DNA from: a virus
DNA length: 18,128 bases
Virus record (IMG/VR): IMGVR_UViG_3300045988_000846
Coordinates: 1-18,128 of that record
Strand: one strand, 5' to 3'
The notes under the pieces are model-generated. The model searched no databases. It was given only the letters and a program-made list of their open reading frames with translations, and was not told the DNA's origin. The translations under genes and the position numbers were made by a program. Positions 1 through 18,128 of this stretch are shown here, one piece after another. Position 1 is the stretch's first letter. The number at the start of each line of letters is the position of its first letter.

Positions 1-202
1 AAGGAGGGGAGGGGTCCCAGCAGCTATCCTTTTTCCACAACTGCTCTATCCTGTGTTTTGCATTGCTGTTGCTTTGTGTGTTTTTGTATTGCCGTTGTTC
101 TCTGTGTTTTTCGTTTCCGCTCTCTTTGTGTTCGTTTCCTTGTCTTGTTTTGTCTTCGTTTTTTTGTGTGTTTTGGGTGTGTTGTTTTTTGTGGCGTGTT
201 AT
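1..202. repeat. Left inverted terminal repeat (ITR-L), 202 bp
   Basis: Positions 1-202 (AAGGAGGGGAGGGGTCCCAGC...GTGGCGTGTTAT) are the exact reverse complement of 17927-18128, compared base by base. Identity breaks at 203 (G) versus the complement of 17926 (A). The repeat starts at the first base of the window. Confidence 0.97.
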
Positions 203-205
203 GAT
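197..205 (+). promoter_or_regulatory. Extended -10 promoter-like element TGtTATGAT straddling the ITR/unique boundary
   Basis: TG-n-TATGAT at 197-205. The first 6 nt lie inside the ITR and the last 3 in unique DNA. The predicted start near 212 gives a ~29-nt leader carrying AAGGAAGGAAG (222-232) before ATG 241. There is no good -35. Confidence 0.45.
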
Positions 206-446: not shown

Positions 447-515
447 ATGTTTCTTTCTGTTCTCGTTATCTGCTCGTGTGTTGTTGGTGTTGTTGTCGTC
501 TTTGGCATGATATAG
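447..515 (+). CDS. Possible 22-codon hydrophobic mini-ORF (MFLSVLVICSCVVGVVVVFGMI)
   Basis: ATG 447 to TAG 513-515. AAGGA lies only 1 nt upstream, which is poor spacing. Its hydrophobicity could simply reflect the T/G-rich strand. Confidence 0.15.
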   Translation: MFLSVLVICSCVVGVVVVFGMI

Positions 516-535: not shown

Positions 536-604
536 ATGTTGGATATTGTTTGTTGGACGGCGGTTGTCGTTGTGGTTTCCGTCGTTTTAGTGTCGTATCT
601 GTGA
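536..604 (+). CDS. Possible 22-codon hydrophobic mini-ORF (MLDIVCWTAVVVVVSVVLVSYL)
   Basis: ATG 536 has AGAAGG (525-530) 5 nt upstream. TGA 602-604 overlaps the GTGAGG SD of gene 615. It lies downstream of the putative promoter at 490-518. It is too short for the ORF track. Confidence 0.3.
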   Translation: MLDIVCWTAVVVVVSVVLVSYL

Positions 605-862: not shown

Positions 863-1066
863 ATGTATTTTCGTGGTTGGATTCATTCGTGGACCTGCGG
901 CAACTGTCCTGACGCTAACATATATTGGCGTTTACGTGCGTTTTGGGCAGGCGTGAAGCATAGACGTAGCGCGGATAATCCGCCGAAACGTTGCCCGAGC
1001 GGTTTTCTGTGGGAAACGTTGTGGCTGGACGGTTATGATAGTAACGAAGACACATTGGAGTTTTAA
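863..1066 (+). CDS. Hypothetical early protein (67 aa), Trp-rich with a CGNC motif
   Basis: ATG 863 is preceded by GGGAGGGG. It has 7 Trp in 67 aa, plus CxxC and one more Cys. I recognise no family. Confidence 0.65.
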   Translation: MYFRGWIHSWTCGNCPDANIYWRLRAFWAGVKHRRSADNPPKRCPSGFLWETLWLDGYDSNEDTLEF

Positions 1067-1616: not shown

Positions 1617-1931
1617 ATGGCATATATCAAGAGAGCCAAGCATTACAGTATCGTGCGCGGCATCACGCGCGGTGAAAACGGTGAACTCGTTGATACGGAA
1701 GTGGTCGTGAATGGTGCGTGCCGTACAGCTGACATGGCTATGAAGAAAGCCCGCAAAATCAACAAGGACATGCTGCCCATGTCTGCCGAGTATCATGCGC
1801 AGGTAACGCGCATGAATGAGGCGATTTATTGGGCTAATTGCGAATTTGGGGATGATACCATTATCGACTATCCGGGGCCGGTTGACGGCAACGTGGTCGA
1901 AGATGATATTATCACCGAGGAAAATAATTAA
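1617..1931 (+). CDS. Putative histone-like dsDNA-binding protein (phi29 p6-like), 104 aa
   Basis: ATG 1617 (alternative 1611) follows AAGGCGGA. The size matches phi29 p6 as I remember it. GACRTADMAMKKARKI resembles p6 GNLTMEQAQWRMKRKY. It has an acidic C-terminal tail (VVEDDIITEENN) like p6. It lies immediately upstream of the SSB-like gene, as in phi29 transcription order 6-5-3-2. Confidence 0.5.
   Translation: MAYIKRAKHYSIVRGITRGENGELVDTEVVVNGACRTADMAMKKARKINKDMLPMSAEYHAQVTRMNEAIYWANCEFGDDTIIDYPGPVDGNVVEDDIITEENN
1882..1912 (+). promoter_or_regulatory. Promoter-like element (TTGACG - 19 nt - TGaTATTAT) upstream of the SSB-like gene
   Basis: TTGACG at 1882-1887 and extended -10 TGaTATTAT at 1904-1912, inside the 3' end of the p6-like gene and ~47 nt before ATG 1959. 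The spacer is 1-2 nt longer than optimal. Confidence 0.3.
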
Positions 1932-1958: not shown

Positions 1959-2396
1959 ATGGCTGACAACGAACTGACCGTAACGAACGGCAACAACTTT
2001 TCCGCAAACGGCACTAACGCCGTATCCCACTTCTTCGACACCACTACTATGGACGGCAAGATGGCGCTCTACAACGCCATGCAAACCGCCGACAAGGTAG
2101 ATGAACATCTTAACGAACCGTTGCATGTCACCAACGTGCTGGCGCAGGCTATCGAAGTCGCCAATCAGGAGACCGGCGAAATCAATGCGTCCACCCGCGT
2201 CGTCATCCACGCAGAGGAAGGTGACTTTGCCGCCGCCTCCCCCACGCTGGCGCACGCATTCGGCAATCTGTTCGCCATTTTCGGCACGCCGGACACGTGG
2301 AACCAGCCACTTGCCCTCAAGGTGGTGGAAAAGAAGAGCCGCCGAGGCTACAAGTTCTTCGACCTTGAACTGGTGCCGGAAGGCAAGCGCAAGTAA
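1959..2396 (+). CDS. Putative single-stranded DNA-binding protein (phi29 p5-like), 145 aa
   Basis: ATG 1959 follows AAGGAAAGG. The C-terminal half aligns by eye with phi29 p5: STRVVIHAEEGDFAAASPTLAHAFGNLFAIF with [31 protein letters not shown], and LKVVEKKSRRGYKFFDLEL with VKVVQGTSSKGNVFFSLQL. It lies directly upstream of the TP/polymerase pair. Confidence 0.6.
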   Translation: MADNELTVTNGNNFSANGTNAVSHFFDTTTMDGKMALYNAMQTADKVDEHLNEPLHVTNVLAQAIEVANQETGEINASTRVVIHAEEGDFAAASPTLAHAFGNLFAIFGTPDTWNQPLALKVVEKKSRRGYKFFDLELVPEGKRK

Positions 2397-2415
2397 CACG
2401 ATTGTCCGCACCGTA

Positions 2416-2450
2416 TGATATCATGGCAATGTCCCTATAGGGATGTTGCC
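2416..2450 (+). promoter_or_regulatory. Intergenic element: extended -10-like TGaTATCAT followed by an 11-bp hairpin
   Basis: TGaTATCAT at 2416-2424. The hairpin pairs GGCAATGTCCC (2425-2435) with GGGATGTTGCC (2440-2450), giving 9 Watson-Crick and 2 G-U pairs. It lies in the 120-nt gap between the SSB-like and TP-like genes. No U tract follows. Confidence 0.3.
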
Positions 2451-2516
2451 GCCAGACTCACCCCCCGCCGTTTCCATCCTTGCGGCGAGGGGTGTTTCAT
2501 ACTCACAGGGGGAACC

Positions 2517-3461
2517 GTGGCAAAACGCAAAAACCGCCGACGCGCTGACATTCTGAAACGCAACGCCGCAATCAGGTCGGCACAGGTACGCCGAGACCGG
2601 GCAGTCGGGGATTACAGTACCGGACGCCTCCCCAAGCGAATCACCGAAACGTTTTTAGGAAATCTCAGTGCCCAACAGCTTGAGCAGGTGGCACGACGTA
2701 TCGGGCAGGAATTCGGAGAACAACAGCAAGCCTTGAGGGCGCGGGATAATGAGCCGTATCAGGTTGTCCCAGATGTTCATATTACGAAACTTGATCGTGA
2801 GATGGCCGCGCGTCCGCTGATAACTGATGCGGAAATCGCCGCCGCCCCGTCGAAACGTCGGAAAACATTGCGGCAGCAGCAGCGCCGCAGAGTTGAGGCA
2901 CGGCAGAAGATTAAGCGTGCCCAACAATTCGAGGCGCTGAGTATGGCCCGCTATACCGTGGGTGAAATGCGTGAAATGGAACGCGCGGGGGAATCTCCGT
3001 TCGACGTGTTAGGCACTCACACGGTCGGCGGTTCGGCACGTGACGAACTCATGCGAAGCCGTGCGAACGTGTTCAGTACAGAGCGTGGAATAAGCCATGC
3101 TCGTACGATGATGCGAGAAGGGAGCCGTAGGAAACTTGAGCGAGAAATGCTTGAATACGCCGGACTTATTGGACGTGCGCCATTACGCGCGGGAACTAGG
3201 CGTATCCCCGAGAACGAGGGTGTTTCTGATTTCGATAAGGTCGCGCAGCAACTTGAAGCATTCGATTTTAGTGTTGCTCAAAGATTCGCCGCCTTGTCGA
3301 ACCGTCAAAAACGATGGCTGATAAACAACACGAATTTCAGCACCGTAGTACGCGAGGCAACATGGTATAATGATAAGGCACACAAATGGGAGACTAAAGC
3401 AGACGCGGGAGATGTAGAGGCACGACTTGATGAATGGATGACCAGCGCAGCAAGACACTAA
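2517..3461 (+). CDS. Putative terminal protein (protein primer), ~314 aa
   Basis: It lies immediately upstream of, and overlaps, the polymerase ORF, the conserved TP-pol arrangement of phi29-type phages. The N-terminus is strongly basic (VAKRKNRRRADILKRNAAIRSAQVRR). The rest is Arg/Glu-rich and looks helical. I chose start GTG 2517 after AGGGGGA; the ORF is open from ATG 2415, so the start is uncertain. Sequence similarity to phi29 TP is not evident by eye beyond the basic N-terminus. Confidence 0.55.
   Translation: MAKRKNRRRADILKRNAAIRSAQVRRDRAVGDYSTGRLPKRITETFLGNLSAQQLEQVARRIGQEFGEQQQALRARDNEPYQVVPDVHITKLDREMAARPLITDAEIAAAPSKRRKTLRQQQRRRVEARQKIKRAQQFEALSMARYTVGEMREMERAGESPFDVLGTHTVGGSARDELMRSRANVFSTERGISHARTMMREGSRRKLEREMLEYAGLIGRAPLRAGTRRIPENEGVSDFDKVAQQLEAFDFSVAQRFAALSNRQKRWLINNTNFSTVVREATWYNDKAHKWETKADAGDVEARLDEWMTSAARH
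3363..3371 (+). promoter_or_regulatory. Consensus extended -10 (TGgTATAAT) inside the 3' part of the TP gene
   Basis: A perfect TGnTATAAT at 3363-3371, ~105 nt upstream of polymerase ATG 3476. It could be an internal promoter for the polymerase or a chance match. Confidence 0.25.
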
Positions 3462-3475
3462 AAAAGGATGGAATC

Positions 3476-4936
3476 ATGCGAGAGCGTCGAACGGCGGTAA
3501 CAGACGGCGCAACACTATTAACGGATGACGGCATAACGCCATTGACGGTGAATGCCGTCATTCGGCTAACCATGCTTGATCATCATACGCGCGTATGGTG
3601 CGCTCACGGATGGCAGGACATCAAGCCCATAGCCGCTCAACTATTGAAACGACTGCCATTGCAATCGAATCCGGCCAAAGATGGAGTCTGGGGCACTTTC
3701 AACATTCGTGGCCATTTCTACAGTTTCCGCGTGCGCATGGGCGGCATCACCGTGGATTTTCTGGACGTGCGCAACATCACGCGCGACGATGGACTGAATG
3801 TTTCACGTGAAACGTTTGGCGGCGCGGATGACTTGGAAACCACGTGGAATATCGCGCAGGAATGCGACGCCCTAAACCTCAAGGGCAATACAATAGCGTC
3901 CATGGCAATGGGCGATTATATCGGCGGGGATTACGCAGGATTCAAACGTCACTTCCCTCCATTGGATAAAGCGGAATATCATCGGATGCGCCCCGCATAC
4001 TATGGGGCGATAGTGTACAGCAGGCCGGGTGAATATCGGGATTGCAGGAGTTGGGACGTGAACAGCCTCTATCCGGGTATCATGCGCGACTTTGCCATGC
4101 CGGTAGGATCTCCCGTTTGGTATGAAGGGGAATATTATTATGACGCTGATTATCCGCTGCATATCGATGTTATCGCGTTCGACGCGCGACTGAAAACGGG
4201 AAAAACGGCGACACTCACAAACATCCTACCCGTATGGGGGTACGAGGGCGAACGTATGGACAGCACGTTGGGCGTCGTCACCATGCCGGTGGCCGACGTG
4301 GATTGGCAGACCTTGACGGAAAACTATGATGTCCATGTGTGGGAGTATATCGGCGGTTGGAAATTCCGTAAATCGCATGGACTCTACTACGAGTATGTGG
4401 ACAAATGGTTCCACGTGAAACAAACCGCAACCGGCGAGCGTCGGCAAATGGCGAAACTATTGCTTAATTCGTTGGTTGGGAAGTTTGGAGCCTCGCTTTA
4501 TCGGCCCATGCTGCACCCAAAGCCTTCTGGCGATGGCGGCGTGGATTTTACTGTAGACAAACCTGAGTCAACCAACTCGCTCGCATGGCTACCAACCGCC
4601 GCATATGTCAACGCCTACGGTCGGCAAATATTGTCACGCGCGATGAACGCGAACGCCGGTCGTGTGCTCTATGCCGATACGGACGGCATGATACTGGACG
4701 GACTGGATGCGCCTGCGGATATCGAAACGGACGATAGGAAACTGGGCGCGTGGAAAAACGACCACACCTATGGAAAACTTCGTATTCTCGGCAATCGCAA
4801 ATACTGCGGTGTGGAGACGGACGGCGGCACGGTGATGCGGTTGAGTGGCGTGCATCGGGCATCCCCTATCCACTACGACGACTTCCTTCCGAGGTCGCGC
4901 CATGTCAATGATGACGGCTGTTTTTTTGTGCTATGA
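3476..4936 (+). CDS. Protein-primed family B DNA polymerase (phi29 gp2-like), 486 aa
   Basis: ATG 3476 follows AAAAAGGATGG; the ORF is open from 3434. Motif A is WDVNSLYPGIM, motif B is KLLLNSLVGKFG and motif C is LYADTDG. A long collinear match to phi29 pol includes SPVWYEGEYYYDADYPLHIDVIAFDARLKTG against EPIVFEGKYVWDEDYPLHIQHIRCEFELKEG. A TPR2-like insertion lies between motifs B and C. The C-terminal VNDDGCFFVL matches VDDTFTIK. Confidence 0.93.
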   Translation: MRERRTAVTDGATLLTDDGITPLTVNAVIRLTMLDHHTRVWCAHGWQDIKPIAAQLLKRLPLQSNPAKDGVWGTFNIRGHFYSFRVRMGGITVDFLDVRNITRDDGLNVSRETFGGADDLETTWNIAQECDALNLKGNTIASMAMGDYIGGDYAGFKRHFPPLDKAEYHRMRPAYYGAIVYSRPGEYRDCRSWDVNSLYPGIMRDFAMPVGSPVWYEGEYYYDADYPLHIDVIAFDARLKTGKTATLTNILPVWGYEGERMDSTLGVVTMPVADVDWQTLTENYDVHVWEYIGGWKFRKSHGLYYEYVDKWFHVKQTATGERRQMAKLLLNSLVGKFGASLYRPMLHPKPSGDGGVDFTVDKPESTNSLAWLPTAAYVNAYGRQILSRAMNANAGRVLYADTDGMILDGLDAPADIETDDRKLGAWKNDHTYGKLRILGNRKYCGVETDGGTVMRLSGVHRASPIHYDDFLPRSRHVNDDGCFFVL

Positions 4937-4937
4937 T
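4929..4937 (+). promoter_or_regulatory. Extended -10 TGcTATGAT overlapping the polymerase stop codon
   Basis: TG-c-TATGAT at 4929-4937. The pol TGA (4934-4936) lies inside the hexamer. A T7 run lies just upstream (4921-4927). A weak -35, aTGACg, sits at 4911-4916 with a 15-nt spacer. The predicted start near 4944-4946 falls right at the base of the long stem described for the ncRNA. Confidence 0.4.
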
Positions 4938-4944
4938 GATCGGT

Positions 4945-5108
4945 AGCGGGGTGTGCGTCCCAAGCTGATTCAATGGCCCGACCGGTGGGCAATCGGTAAG
5001 GCGATTCGGTCGGATGTAGACGTGCGTAGCCAACGCCCATTGACGGCGAGGGAACCCGCACAGCCTAGCAATCCGGCACGGTGGCGTGATTGCCGCCGTG
5101 CCTTCTAC
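4945..5108 (+). ncRNA. Candidate structured ncRNA, proposed packaging RNA (pRNA)
   Basis: The 180-nt gap has no ORF. By-eye folding gives a long interrupted stem pairing 4946-4976 with 5037-5069: TGTGCG/CGCACA, TCCC/GGGA, GCTG/CGGC and TCAATGG/CCATTGA. The stem closes a three-way junction. One arm is a bulged hairpin at 4978-5013 (7 bp + 5 bp, 6-nt bulge GUGGGC, loop GUAAGG). The other is a short hairpin at 5024-5036 (loop AGCCA). A 3' hairpin follows at 5075-5102. The length of ~160 nt is comparable to the 174-nt phi29 pRNA. The genome encodes gp10- and gp16-like partners. Confidence 0.45.
5075..5102 (+). terminator. GC-rich hairpin (11-bp stem), terminator-like
   Basis: GGCACGGTGGC (5075-5085) pairs with GCCGCCGTGCC (5092-5102), giving 10 Watson-Crick and 1 G-U pair with loop GTGATT. 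It is followed by TTCTACCTT, a weak U tract. It sits just before the scaffold SD. Confidence 0.5.
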
Positions 5109-5122
5109 CTTAAGAGGTGATT

Positions 5123-17634: not shown

Positions 17635-17892
17635 TCAGTCGCCGTTATCGATCGAGATAACATACTTGCGGCACGGACGCCCCTTTTTCGAGAGGCCCTG
17701 AGCAACCTCAATATAATCATAATCAAAGCTCAACATTAATTCAATAACCGAAGAGAGAGCAGAGTCAAAAGTGGTAACAGAGTCGTCAATCAAACCATTA
17801 TCACGAACAGTACCAGTATACACATCTTCAATACCGACTTTATATACATTATCCGGCTCAATCTCGATAACGTAAGCATTAAACTTATTCAT
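17635..17892 (-). CDS. Small acidic protein (85 aa) transcribed inward from the right ITR, function unknown
   Basis: The minus-strand ATG at 17892 is preceded by GGGAAAGGAAAAAA. The longer ORF-track start at 17919 would translate the SD region. It has 15 Asp/Glu and 8 Lys/Arg. It is AT-rich relative to the core. The N-terminal pattern FNAYVIEIEPDNVYKV faintly recalls HicB/UPF0150-type folds, which is very tentative. Confidence 0.75.
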   Translation of the reverse strand: MNKFNAYVIEIEPDNVYKVGIEDVYTGTVRDNGLIDDSVTTFDSALSSVIELMLSFDYDYIEVAQGLSKKGRPCRKYVISIDNGD

Positions 17893-17923: not shown

Positions 17924-17932
17924 AGTATAACA
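17924..17932 (-). promoter_or_regulatory. Extended -10 TGtTATACT straddling the right ITR/unique boundary (mirror of 197-205)
   Basis: The minus strand reads ...GTGGCGTGTTATACTGTAG. TGtTAT comes from the ITR and ACT from unique DNA. The predicted start near 17917 gives a ~25-nt leader with an SD before ATG 17892. Confidence 0.45.
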
Positions 17933-18128
17933 CGCCACAAAAAACAACACACCCAAAACACACAAAAAAACGAAGACAAAACAAGACAAGGAAACGAACA
18001 CAAAGAGAGCGGAAACGAAAAACACAGAGAACAACGGCAATACAAAAACACACAAAGCAACAGCAATGCAAAACACAGGATAGAGCAGTTGTGGAAAAAG
18101 GATAGCTGCTGGGACCCCTCCCCTCCTT
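17927..18128. repeat. Right inverted terminal repeat (ITR-R), 202 bp
   Basis: It is the exact reverse complement of 1-202 and ends at the last base of the window. Confidence 0.97.

What the first reader, a model, noticed from the sequence alone, without database searches (positions are those of the whole stretch)
49..200. ITR interior is an almost adenine-free T/G strand with helically phased short repeats
Between 49 and 200 I count only two A residues (62 and 88) on the top strand. Because the repeat is inverted, the 5'-ending (TP-linked, displaced) strand is T/G-rich at both genome ends and the 3' template strand is A/C-rich. Such a strand cannot form Watson-Crick hairpins. The repeats are phased: TTCGTTTCC at 110-118 and 131-139 (21 bp apart) and TGTCTT at 141-146 and 151-156 (10 bp apart). 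In phi29 the p6 protein builds a phased nucleoprotein complex on the genome ends to open the origin. A p6-like gene is present here (1617-1931). The same T/G skew continues in the 442-614 spacer.
Basis: partly seen in the sequence, partly recalled or inferred. Interest (0 to 1): 0.6.

Follow-up and report, generated by a model that had tools for sequence, protein, structure and literature searches.

The report
Phased T-run array in phage ITR
The adenine-free stretch in the end repeats of this small gut phage is real, but it is built from about 25-base units with T-runs every ~13 bases (not the 10.5-base DNA helix repeat). It lies at the extreme of a genome-wide replication-type base skew and is probably the docking track for a phi29 p6-like DNA-wrapping protein.

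Summary
The window is a complete 18.1-kb phi29-like podophage. Its nearest cultured relatives are Bifidobacterium phages. It has perfect 202-bp ITRs.

**Confirmed.** Positions 49-200 hold T90 G38 C22 A2, with the A residues at 62 and 88. Neither strand of the tract can fold.

**Not confirmed.**
- The quoted 9-mer and 6-mer repeats are at chance level for this composition.
- There is no 10-10.5-bp phasing.

**What is there.**
- T-runs recur every 12.5-13 bp, in degenerate ~25-bp units. The signal is unique to the ITRs and kept in 18 of 21 sequence-diverged relatives.
- The origin-to-promoter distance in relatives is quantised in ~25-bp steps.
- The tract always ends at the extended -10 of an inward early promoter.
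- The T/G skew tops a gradient at four-fold sites seen in all four Bifidobacterium-type podophages tested. phi29 and a Curtobacterium phage lack it.
- A sister clade has T/G tracts without the periodicity.
- The 1617-1931 product has no sequence match to p6. Its best structural match in the PDB is phi29 p6 (8PW4), and it shares p6's architecture and position upstream of the SSB gene.
- 442-614 is not a spacer. It encodes a conserved 22-residue hydrophobic peptide.

**Best reading (inferred).** Mutational skew combined with a hard-wired assembly track for the p6-like protein.

The parts
1..202 (+). Left inverted terminal repeat (perfect copy of the right one)
   Evidence: Exact reverse-complement identity for 202 bases. 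IMG/VR classes the record as ITR-bearing and 100% complete.
17927..18128 (-). Right inverted terminal repeat
1..48 (+). Conserved terminal block, the presumed minimal origin: (AA)AAGGAGGGGAGGGGYCCCAGCAGCTAKCCTTTTTCCAYAACTGCTCT. It includes the first T5 run at 30-34.
   Evidence: Conserved in more than 25 relatives. It is less polymorphic than the tract (7/40 against 41/152 columns). In L006 and L063 an Illumina adapter is fused directly to AAAAGG, so the physical end is AAAAGG and the window probably lacks 2 A.
49..200 (+). Adenine-poor T/G tract: a degenerate tandem array of ~25-bp units with T-runs every ~12.8 bp. Runs of 3 or more T start at 56, 73, 81, 107, 114, 125, 135, 148, 159, 171 and 185. 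The major ones lie about 26 bp apart: 30, 56, 81, 107, ~134, 159, 185.
   Evidence: Composition. TT periodicity at 12.5-13 bp, 0/1000 shuffles. TRF units of 26 bp (51-132) and 24 bp (125-175). T-run list. Signal unique to the ITRs within the genome.
17929..18080 (-). The same tract in the right ITR. It reads T/G-rich on the minus strand, which is the 5'-ending strand at that end.
173..205 (+). Conserved promoter-proximal block plus extended -10 (TGtTATGAT, 197-205). The ITR ends inside the -10, at position 202.
   Evidence: Positions 173-190 are almost invariant among 9 sequences. The block is conserved in all clusters, and the tract always ends at T|ATGAT or T|ATTAT followed by GTATCA..AAGGA..ATG. 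There is no canonical -35, so the simple scan does not call it. The promoter is therefore inferred.
17924..17932 (-). Right-end counterpart of the split -10 (TGtTATACT). It would drive the inward gene 17635-17892.
1617..1931 (+). Gene for a 104-aa p6-fold protein, the candidate binder of the array
   Evidence: AF2 model pLDDT 76.6. Foldseek best PDB hit is 8PW4_A, phi29 p6 (prob 0.99). BFVD hits include named p6/dsDNA-binding proteins. The family is conserved upstream of the SSB gene in Bifidobacterium phages. No Pfam, PHROG or BLAST match.
1959..2396 (+). phi29-type single-stranded DNA-binding protein
   Evidence: PF17427 Phi29_Phage_SSB, E 1.3e-15. phrog_6243.
2415..3461 (+). Putative terminal protein, assigned by position only
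   Evidence: It lies between the SSB and PolB genes, as in phi29 and Curtobacterium phage Prophecy. No family match.
3434..4936 (+). Protein-primed family B DNA polymerase
   Evidence: PF03175, E 1.8e-32. phrog_1907, E 1e-51.
447..515 (+). Conserved 22-codon ORF for a hydrophobic peptide (MFLSVLVICSCVVGVVVVFGMI). It accounts for the T/G richness of the supposed spacer.
   Evidence: Intact ORF of 22 codons in 12 relatives and 24 codons in one more, at 64-100% identity with conservative changes.
536..604 (+). Second 22-codon hydrophobic ORF, weakly supported
   Evidence: It has an RBS-like GAAGG upstream. It was found in only 2 relatives, both identical.

Best explanation
Positions 49-200 are the variable middle module of a three-part ITR: a conserved ~48-bp origin block, a T-run array, and an early promoter at the ITR edge.

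Two separate things are superimposed in this module.

(1) Composition. The T/G-rich, A-poor 5'-ending strand is the extreme of a strand-asymmetric composition gradient. The gradient runs in from both genome ends in Bifidobacterium-type phi29-like phages. It has the sign expected if the displaced 5'-ending strand spends time single-stranded (C->T and A->G changes). The non-coding ITR, which is displaced first and copied last, goes furthest.

(2) Order. In this clade the tract is a degenerate tandem array of ~25-bp units, with one strong and one weaker T-run per unit (period ~12.8 bp). The window has 6 units and relatives have 5-10.

I propose that this array is a hard-wired assembly track for the phage's p6-fold dsDNA-binding protein (1617-1931). 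One monomer would sit on each T-run (a narrow A/T minor groove) and one dimer on each unit, wrapping the DNA in a right-handed coil. The complex would help open the adjacent origin for terminal-protein priming. As the protein accumulates, it would cover and shut the early promoter at the ITR edge at both ends.

Shown here: the composition, the gradient, the periodicity, the length quantisation, the p6-like fold and the synteny.

Inferred: that this protein binds the array, the stoichiometry, origin opening, and promoter repression.
For: Array:
- TT/TTT periodicity at 12.5-13 bp (0/1000 shuffles).
- The signal is unique to the ITRs: power 2.4-2.75 against a genome 95th percentile of 0.31-0.44.
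- It is the top peak in 18 of 21 tract clusters (mean z 5.2 at 13.0 bp). Primary sequence identity between clusters is at shuffled level, while their periodic power stays above neutral-decay simulations.
- TRF finds units of 26 and 24 bp.
- The distance from the conserved CCTTTTTCCA motif to the -10 takes the values 144, 169-171, 217-221, 243-246 and 267-270, with one at 185. The steps are about 25 bp.
- T-runs are less polymorphic than the spacers between them: 2/35 against 39/117, p = 0.0009.
- The T-block phase folds coherently at 25.7 bp when anchored on the -10.

Binder:
- The best PDB match of the AF2 model is phi29 p6, and named p6 proteins are hit in BFVD.
- The model has the same parts as p6: beta core, hairpin, short helix, acidic tail (compared with PMC10899789).
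- The gene lies directly upstream of a phi29-type SSB gene, as gene 6 does.
- Published p6 register: one monomer per 12 bp, one dimer per 24 bp, minor-groove contacts at A/T, a right-handed superhelix, preferential binding to genome ends, and repression of the end-proximal C2 promoter (PMC10899789; phi29 record). GA-1 p6 uses 11 bp, so the register varies between phages.

Composition:
- The keto fraction at four-fold sites falls from left to right in the window (0.60 to 0.43, AT skew -0.29 to +0.31).
- The same holds in BD811P2 (0.55 to 0.20, rho -0.20, p 2e-24), BadAargau2 and BP1 (p about 1e-8).
- Four-fold sites of the end-proximal genes, read on the 5'-ending strand, are A 9%, C 17%, G 29%, T 45%.
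- Relatives in the BD811P2 clade also have A- and C-poor tracts before the same -10.
Against: - No binding data exist.
- The p6 likeness rests on fold, architecture and synteny only. TM is about 0.5 and the Foldseek E against PDB is 0.086. hhalign gives E 0.015 with low probability. No HMM or BLAST support was found.
- Phages with a homologous p6-like gene (BadAargau2, BP1 and the BD811P2 clade) show no 12.8-bp signal in their ITRs. The protein therefore does not need such an array.
- With the same test, phi29's own ends give only a weak 12-bp WW peak (p about 0.1).
- A simple wedge model gives a right-handed path, but within 1 SD of genome controls.
- The relatives share ancestry, and unit amplification alone can regenerate periodicity.
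- In the phase test with the conserved 60 nt removed, a 10.5-bp control was nearly as concentrated (R 0.55 against 0.59). Phase conservation is therefore only suggestive.
- Pure deamination should deplete C at least as much as A. Here A is 1.3% and C is 14.5%. This clade also has the weakest genome-wide gradient of the four phages. The composition is therefore not fully explained either.
Confidence: 0.42

Rival explanations
1. Neutral by-product. Strand-asymmetric mutation pressure makes the non-coding ITR interior T/G-rich. Replication slippage or unequal exchange of a ~25-bp A-free unit makes and resizes a minisatellite. The tract would be only a spacer between origin and promoter, with no protein assembling on it in register.
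For: - The skew gradient at synonymous sites has the same sign in four phages.
- Terminal genes already have A at about 9% and T at about 45% at four-fold sites.
- A sister clade has T/G tracts with no periodicity, so the composition does not need an array.
- TRF detects tandem units.
- Copy number varies in unit steps, as in minisatellites.
- The tract evolves faster than the terminal block.
Against: - T-runs are significantly less polymorphic than the spacers.
- Periodic power is retained in clusters whose sequences are no more alike than shuffles, above neutral-decay simulations.
- Different sequence clusters share length classes within +/-2 bp.
- A is depleted more than at the local four-fold sites (1.3% against 8.6%, P 1.4e-4), while C is not.
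- G<->A polymorphism is rarer per site than C<->T polymorphism (p 0.044).
Confidence: 0.27
2. Promoter architecture. The T-run array is an upstream element of the ITR-edge early promoter. It could be an UP-like or bent-DNA activator, or an operator field for a host nucleoid protein or another phage regulator. It would be unrelated to replication or to the p6-like protein.
For: - The tract always abuts the conserved extended -10, and the last ~45 nt are conserved in all clusters.
- The promoter has no canonical -35, so it may depend on upstream DNA.
- The tract is 39.5% G+C in a 54% G+C genome. AT-rich DNA is what AT-preferring nucleoid proteins bind.
- The T-block phase folds coherently on the -10.
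Against: - UP elements and upstream bends act within about 60-100 bp and in helical phase (10-11 bp). Here the array extends 150-235 bp with a 12.8-bp period and no 10.5-bp signal.
- The array's register also includes the T5 run inside the conserved origin block.
- The phase test outside the conserved 60 nt is weak.
Confidence: 0.13
3. Single-strand function. The point of the tract is that neither the displaced T/G strand nor the A/C template strand can fold. The phi29-type SSB would then load fast, the polymerase would meet no hairpins, and the two ITR copies on a fully displaced strand could only pair with each other (a panhandle). The periodicity would be incidental.
For: - MFE is -0.9 and -1.8 kcal/mol against -9 to -27 for control windows.
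- A strand-specific constraint would explain why A is avoided even between the T-runs, which a duplex-binding model does not.
- The T/G composition is shared by the sister clade that lacks the periodicity.
- The 202-bp ITRs are perfectly identical.
Against: - It does not explain the 12.8/25.7-bp order, the length quantisation or the extra conservation of T-runs.
- phi29 and a Curtobacterium phage replicate the same way without such ends.
- The conserved terminal 48 nt can form small hairpins, so unfoldability is not enforced at the very end.
Confidence: 0.13
4. One reading: short exact repeats phased at 10 and 21 bp (the helical repeat) position a p6-like protein on one face of the helix.
For: The repeats exist at the stated coordinates. 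TRF reports local 21-bp and 10-bp periods at 99-139 and 140-162.
Against: - The repeat lengths and counts are at chance level for this composition.
- No 10-10.5-bp spectral signal appears in the window or in any relative (z < 0).
- Published p6 binds every 12 bp, not in helical phase (PMC10899789).
Confidence: 0.03

Closest known systems
phi29 protein p6 nucleoprotein complex at the genome ends (Bacillus phage phi29; structure 8PW4; PMC10899789)
   Same: - A small (104-aa) early protein with a basic beta core, a hairpin, a short helix and an acidic tail.
- It is encoded directly upstream of the SSB gene.
- Published binding: one monomer per 12 bp and one dimer per 24 bp, through A/T minor grooves.
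- It prefers the terminal ~50-125 bp, activates protein-primed initiation, and represses an end-proximal early promoter.
- Here the DNA carries a 12.8/25.7-bp T-run register from nt ~30 to the early promoter.
   Different: - There is no detectable sequence homology of the protein, only fold at TM ~0.5.
- phi29 has a 6-bp ITR, no T/G skew (its first 50 nt are A/C-rich on the 5' strand), and only a weak 12-bp signal.
- Here the register is written into the DNA as a tandem array of countable units inside a 202-bp ITR, and the period is ~12.8 rather than 12.
- Binding has not been tested.
GA-1 p6 (Bacillus phage GA-1)
   Same: It is a homologue of p6 with a different register (11 bp per monomer; PMC10899789). 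This shows the register varies between phages.
   Different: GA-1 p6 is recognisably homologous to phi29 p6 in sequence (38% identity). The window's protein is not.
Replication-associated strand compositional asymmetry (G+T-rich heavy strand of animal mitochondrial DNA; gradients at four-fold sites; PMC3269015, PMC3269014)
   Same: The strand that is displaced and left single-stranded is enriched in T and G. The effect grades with distance and is strongest at synonymous and non-coding sites. Here the gradient runs in from both ends, as expected for two terminal origins.
   Different: - It is seen here in a protein-primed phage lineage only. It is absent in phi29 and a Curtobacterium phage.
- In the window's tract A is depleted far more than C, which simple deamination does not predict.
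- The mutation spectrum has not been measured.
Long ITRs of other phi29-like phages, e.g. Bifidobacterium phage BadAargau2 (227 bp)
   Same: The ITR is about 200 bp, ends at or after an inward early promoter, and has an A-poor interior (A 13%). A homologous p6-like gene lies upstream of the SSB gene.
   Different: The skew in BadAargau2 is mild and there is no 12.8-bp periodicity.
Iterons / degenerate tandem repeats at replication origins
   Same: Direct repeats of about 20-26 bp lie next to an origin, and copy number varies between relatives.
   Different: Iterons are sequence-specific sites for an initiator and are well conserved. Here the units are only about 74-85% alike and the sequence turns over completely between relatives. 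Only the T-run register and the composition persist.

Membership tests
phi29 p6 (dsDNA-binding / 'histone-like' protein) family - for the 1617-1931 product | Sequence match to p6 family models or members | tested here: not met
   - No Pfam hit at E <= 1 and no PHROG hit.
- BLASTP against phi29 p6 gives no alignment.
- tblastn with phi29 p6 at E <= 10 finds only Bacillus, Enterococcus and a few other records, none from Bifidobacterium phages.
- A profile search against PDB sequences does not find 8PW4.
- hhalign of the two families gives a colinear 74-column alignment, but E is only 0.015 and probability 3%.
phi29 p6 family | p6 fold (beta core, oligomerisation hairpin, alpha2 dimerisation helix) | tested here: met
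   - AF2 model pLDDT 76.6, with core blocks above 90.
- The best PDB hit of 350,542 chains is 8PW4_A, phi29 p6 (prob 0.99, TM 0.48/0.57, 80 columns). The next hits have prob <= 0.35.
- BFVD hits include named p6/dsDNA-binding proteins of Salasmaviridae, with prob ~1.
- The TM of ~0.5 is moderate.
phi29 p6 family | Disordered acidic C-terminal tail of about 10-21 residues | tested here: met
   Residues 78-104 hold 9 Asp/Glu (translation of 1617-1931) and have low pLDDT (53-62). p6 has ten acidic residues in its tail (PMC10899789).
phi29 p6 family | Gene directly upstream of the phi29-type SSB gene in the early replication operon | tested here: met
   Window: 1617-1931, then SSB at 1959-2396 (PF17427). 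The same order holds in phi29, Nf, GA-1, PumA2, Karezi and an Enterococcus phage, and in Bifidobacterium phages.
phi29 p6 family | Cooperative, periodic minor-groove binding to dsDNA that restrains positive supercoils | not testable with these tools
   This needs footprinting and topology assays.
p6 nucleation region at genome ends (DNA side) | A/T-based bendability pattern with a ~12/24-bp period within the terminal 50-200 bp | tested here: met
   TT period 12.5-13 bp with units of ~25 bp, from nt 30 to 190. The period is slightly longer than phi29's 12 bp. With the same test, phi29's ends gave only a weak 12-bp WW peak.
Helically phased (10-11 bp) A/T-tract bent DNA | A/T-runs recurring at the helical repeat | tested here: not met
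   z is below 0 at 10-11 bp in the window and in all 21 clusters. In the wedge model the end-to-end/contour ratio is 0.95, so there is no planar curvature.
Replication-associated strand asymmetry | T and G enriched on the displaced strand, with a gradient at four-fold sites that reverses sign between the two genome halves | tested here: met
   - Window: AT skew runs from -0.29 to +0.31.
- BD811P2 runs from -0.53 to +0.75, and BadAargau2 and BP1 behave likewise.
- The profile in the window is noisy and is steepest in the terminal ~1 kb rather than linear.
Replication-associated strand asymmetry | C depleted at least as much as A (C deamination dominates in single-stranded DNA) | tested here: not met
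   The window tract has A 1.3% and C 14.5%. In the BD811P2 clade both are low, for example L177 with A0 C3 G43 T67.
Tandem repeat / minisatellite | Head-to-tail units with copy-number variation between relatives | tested here: met
   TRF finds a 26-bp unit in 3.3 copies at 74% match, and a 24-bp unit in 2.2 copies. Length classes step by about 25 bp.
Protein-coding sequence (ORFs 1-204, 2-223, 53-223 in the tract) | Start codon with an RBS, and frame preserved among relatives | tested here: not met
   All three frames are open only because stop codons need A. There is no RBS or start downstream of the terminus. Relatives differ by about 24-26 bp and by small indels that are not multiples of 3.

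The most novel reading that the evidence does not exclude
In this clade of gut phages the p6-type origin complex is hard-wired into the genome. Each ITR would carry a counted array (5-10 units of ~25.7 bp) that pre-sets the register and length of a right-handed p6-like filament. One protein filament, nucleated on the array, would then both melt the adjacent protein-primed origin and switch off the identical early promoters at both ends. A lineage-specific, unusually strong displaced-strand mutation pressure would supply the A-free raw material.
Probability: 0.3. Interest if true: 0.72.

Novelty: new variant of a known kind. Interest (0 to 1): 0.6.

Why it matters
- phi29 p6 is the textbook case of a protein that recognises a DNA shape pattern rather than a sequence. 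Its natural sites are short and weakly periodic, and experiments have used artificial 24-bp concatemers (PMC10899789).
- A natural, long and sharply periodic array next to a p6-fold gene would give a clean substrate for footprinting and structural work.
- It would extend the p6 fold beyond Salasmaviridae. A 2024 review found no p6 relatives outside that family and Enterococcus faecium strains (PMC11476376).
- It would explain why ITRs in this abundant human-gut phage group come in discrete lengths.
- The synonymous-site gradient is a separate, directly testable signature of two-ended strand-displacement replication in a phage lineage.
- Practically, the low-complexity tracts explain why several published genomes of this group lack their true ends.

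Tried and rejected
- **Exact short repeats as evidence of phasing.** Chance level in dinucleotide shuffles.
- **10-10.5-bp helical periodicity.** Absent.
- **Known RNA families, including pRNA, anywhere in the window.** None at E <= 1.
- **Coding potential of the stop-free tract.** Rejected: no start or RBS, and the frame is not kept among relatives.
- **Intrinsic curvature by a minimal wedge model.** I used parameters recalled from memory. The sign is right-handed but within 1 SD of genome controls, so the result is inconclusive.
- **phi29 ends as a positive control for the spectral test.** Only a weak 12-bp WW peak, p about 0.1.
- **Sequence and profile links to p6.** Negative or weak.
- **Phase conservation of T-runs relative to the -10, outside the conserved 60 nt.** R = 0.59, but a 10.5-bp control gave 0.55, so I do not rely on it.
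I re-ran it with permitted rows only.
- **Simple sigma-70 scan.** It does not call the ITR-edge promoter because there is no -35. It finds no promoter-like site inside the tract on either strand.
Full report
**What the window is.** The 18,128 bases are a complete linear genome with a perfect 202-bp inverted terminal repeat. IMG/VR classes the record as ITR-bearing and 100% complete. The genes are those of a phi29-like podophage:
- a phi29-type SSB (PF17427) and a protein-primed family B polymerase (PF03175);
- major head protein, tail protein, upper and lower collar, packaging ATPase, holin and endolysin.

All genes read rightward except one small inward gene at the right end. The nearest cultured relatives are Bifidobacterium podophages (BadAargau2, BD811P2, BP1) at about 35% polymerase identity. 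IMG/VR holds more than 80 close relatives at 87-96% identity.

**Observation check.** On the top strand, 49-200 holds T90 G38 C22 A2, and the two A residues are at 62 and 88 as stated.
- Outside the ITRs no 152-nt window has fewer than 15 A.
- Both strands of the tract are essentially unfoldable as single strands. MFE is -0.9 and -1.8 kcal/mol, against -9 to -27 for six coding control windows.
- The quoted repeats are at the stated coordinates, but they carry no information. In dinucleotide-preserving shuffles of the tract a repeat of 12 nt or more occurs 14% of the time, and the 6-mer and 9-mer pair counts have p = 0.12-0.15.
- There is no 10-10.5-bp signal.

**What the order really is.** TT and TTT dinucleotides recur with a period of 12.5-13 bp. 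None of 1000 shuffles reaches the TT peak.
- TRF sees degenerate units of 26 bp (51-132) and 24 bp (125-175).
- The major T-runs start at 30, 56, 81, 107, ~134, 159 and 185, about 26 bp apart. Weaker runs lie at the half-period.
- Within the genome the signal is unique to the two ITRs.

I extracted the A-poor tract from relatives and clustered it into 21 groups that share few 10-mers.
- Eighteen groups peak at 12.5-13 bp. Mean z is 5.2 at 13.0 bp and negative at 10-11 bp.
- Alignment identity between clusters is mostly no better than for shuffled sequences. Their periodic power (1.9-3.2) nevertheless stays above what neutral redrawing of half the sites leaves (mean 1.0).
- Among seven close relatives, T-run positions are polymorphic in 2 of 35 cases against 39 of 117 elsewhere in the tract (p = 0.0009).

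**Anatomy of the ITR.** In all relatives the ITR has three modules.
- *Terminal block.* About 48 bp are conserved: AAAAGGAGGGGAGGGGYCCCAGCAGCTAKCCTTTTTCCAYAACTGCTCT. Two contigs carry an Illumina adapter fused directly to AAAAGG. The physical end is therefore AAAAGG, and the window probably lacks two A at each end. A 3'-TTTT template end fits sliding-back initiation, as established for phi29-type replication.
- *A-poor tract.* It is 133-235 bp long in relatives.
- *Promoter-proximal block.* A conserved ~45-bp block ends in T|ATGAT or T|ATTAT, followed by GTATCA..AAGGA..ATG. This reads as an extended -10 (TGtTATGAT, 197-205) split by the ITR boundary, with TGtTATACT at the right end. The promoter is inferred. 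It has no canonical -35 and the simple scan does not call it.

The distance from the conserved CCTTTTTCCA motif to the -10 takes discrete values: 144, 169-171, 217-221, 243-246 and 267-270, plus a single 185. The steps are about 25 bp. Relatives therefore carry 5-10 units, and the window carries 6. Anchored on the -10, the pooled T frequency folds into one strong T block per 25.7 bp (0.72-0.80 against 0.38-0.64). With the conserved 60 nt removed, the phase concentration (R 0.59) was not clearly better than a 10.5-bp control (R 0.55). I do not lean on phase conservation.

**Where the composition comes from.** All large genes lie on one strand, so four-fold degenerate sites give a clean test.
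- In the window, the keto (G+T) fraction falls from 0.60 at the left to 0.43 at the right. AT skew goes from -0.29 to +0.31.
- BD811P2 shows a stronger gradient: 0.55 to 0.20, AT skew -0.53 to +0.75, rho -0.20, p 2e-24. BadAargau2 and BP1 show it at p about 1e-8.
- phi29 and Curtobacterium phage Prophecy show no such gradient. The circularly permuted Eggerthella record shows a weak trend of opposite sign.
- The sign is the one expected if the 5'-ending strand is displaced first and copied last, and so suffers C->T and A->G changes while single-stranded. This principle is established for mitochondrial DNA (PMC3269015).
- Four-fold sites of the end-proximal genes, read on the 5'-ending strand, are already A 9%, C 17%, G 29%, T 45%.
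- IMG/VR relatives of BD811P2 also carry T/G tracts in front of the same -10. Examples are 397 nt with A9 C19 G152 T217, and 113 nt with A0 C3 G43 T67. They have no 12.8-bp periodicity.

The T/G skew is therefore a lineage-wide, end-centred property, while the array is specific to the window's clade. Mutation pressure does not explain everything.
- The tract is still A-poorer than the local four-fold sites (P = 1.4e-4).
- A is depleted far more than C, the reverse of what deamination alone predicts.
- G<->A polymorphism is rarer per site than C<->T polymorphism (p 0.044).
- This clade has the weakest genome-wide gradient of the four phages.

**The p6-like gene.** The 104-aa product of 1617-1931 has no sequence-level link to p6.
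- It has no Pfam or PHROG match.
- It shows no BLAST similarity to phi29 p6.
- It is not reached from p6 by tblastn.
- A profile search of PDB sequences also fails to reach p6.
- Profile-profile alignment with a p6 family alignment is colinear over 74 columns but weak (E 0.015).

The structural and positional evidence points the other way.
- An AF2 model (pLDDT 76.6) has phi29 p6 (8PW4_A) as its best and only confident PDB match: prob 0.99, TM 0.48/0.57.
- In BFVD it matches proteins named p6, or dsDNA-binding protein, of Salasmaviridae.
- The order of elements is that of p6 as described in PMC10899789: long N-terminal strand, hairpin, helix, strand, short helix, then an acidic low-confidence tail with 9 Asp/Glu.
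- The gene sits directly upstream of the phi29-type SSB gene, as gene 6 does in phi29, Nf, GA-1, PumA2, Karezi and an Enterococcus phage.
- Homologues occupy the same place in Bifidobacterium phages.

A 2024 review states that p6 has homologues only in Salasmaviridae and E. faecium strains (PMC11476376).

**The 442-614 'spacer'.** It is T/G-rich but shows no periodic signal. It contains a 22-codon ORF (447-515, MFLSVLVICSCVVGVVVVFGMI). The ORF is intact with conservative substitutions in 13 relatives: 22 codons in 12 of them and 24 in one. Hydrophobic codons account for the T/G richness. A second mini-ORF (536-604) is found in only two identical relatives.

**Mechanism.** Published p6 has these properties (PMC10899789; phi29 record):
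- one monomer per 12 bp and one dimer per 24 bp, binding in A/T minor grooves;
- a right-handed wrap of the DNA, about 63 bp per turn;
- nucleation in the terminal 50-125 bp;
- activation of initiation and repression of the end-proximal promoter C2.

GA-1 p6 uses an 11-bp register.

A register of 12.8/25.7 bp running from the origin block to an early promoter, next to a p6-fold gene, fits the same mode of action with a slightly longer register. By simple geometry, bends repeating every 12.8 bp on a 10.5-bp helix rotate by about +79 degrees per repeat. That gives a right-handed path of about 58 bp per turn. A minimal wedge model gave the right-handed sign, but within 1 SD of controls. Binding, stoichiometry, origin opening and promoter shut-off are all inferred.

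The main rival is that skew plus slippage made a functionless minisatellite. The extra conservation of T-runs and the maintained periodicity argue against it, but unit turnover could mimic both. The other rivals are a purely transcriptional upstream element and a single-strand 'unfoldable end' function. The latter would best explain why A is avoided even between the T-runs. These readings are not mutually exclusive.

**Verdict.** The result is a new variant of a known kind: a p6-type origin complex apparently written into the ITR as a counted array, set on a lineage-specific replication skew.

Limits:
- there are no binding data;
- the fold similarity is moderate;
- the relatives are not independent;

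Noticed in passing
window 1-2 and 18127-18128; L006:36-50, L063:32-46: Most relatives begin AAAAGGAGG. In two contigs a TruSeq adapter is fused directly to AAAAGG. The true 5' end is therefore probably AAAAGG (3'-TTTT template, which fits sliding-back), and the window lacks two A at each end.
   Followed up: partly
window 4950-5099 (non-coding gap 4937-5116 after the polymerase gene): This stretch folds far better than shuffles: -38.2 kcal/mol as DNA, z -3.2, 0 of 200 shuffles as good. An equivalent 180-230-nt gap exists in BD811P2, BadAargau2 and BP1. The scan has already noted and followed it up as a candidate packaging RNA (e1-3754936).
   Followed up: partly
window 447-515: Conserved 22-codon ORF for a hydrophobic, probably membrane-spanning peptide, directly after the first early gene. 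It is intact in 13 relatives. BD811P2 has a small hydrophobic ORF at the same place.
   Followed up: partly
L036, L041, L045, L052, L059, L062, L066, L069, L071, L077 (first 100-300 nt): A subset of relatives carries two or more copies of a TAAGCGCGTAG box between the T-run array and the early promoter. This looks like a sequence-specific operator that the window lacks.
   Followed up: no
window 19-47: Partial dyad symmetry AGCAGCTAT-CCTTTTTCC-AyAaCTGCT is centred on the first T5 run of the conserved origin block. It is a perfect 9-bp inverted repeat in L077 (AGCAGCTAT / ATAGCTGCT). In most relatives GGGGCCCC at 11-18 is a perfect palindrome.
   Followed up: no
L086 (OP172659.1), L089 (OP172658.1), L087 (PQ571273.1): Public Bifidobacterium phage records lack their true ends or are misjoined. 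BD811P2 starts inside the T/G tract, 12 nt before the -10. BD811P1 starts inside genes. BP1 carries an Illumina adapter at about 241-290, followed by the real terminus. The low-complexity ITRs seem to defeat assembly.
   Followed up: partly
L086 whole genome (BD811P2): The synonymous-site gradient is very steep. The keto fraction at four-fold sites runs from 0.55 to 0.20, and AT skew from -0.53 to +0.75, left to right. It is much stronger than in the window.
   Followed up: partly
window 863-1066: The 67-aa early protein has a CxxC motif plus a further Cys and matches no family. It could be a small zinc-binding or DNA-binding protein and an alternative binder of the ITR.
   Followed up: no
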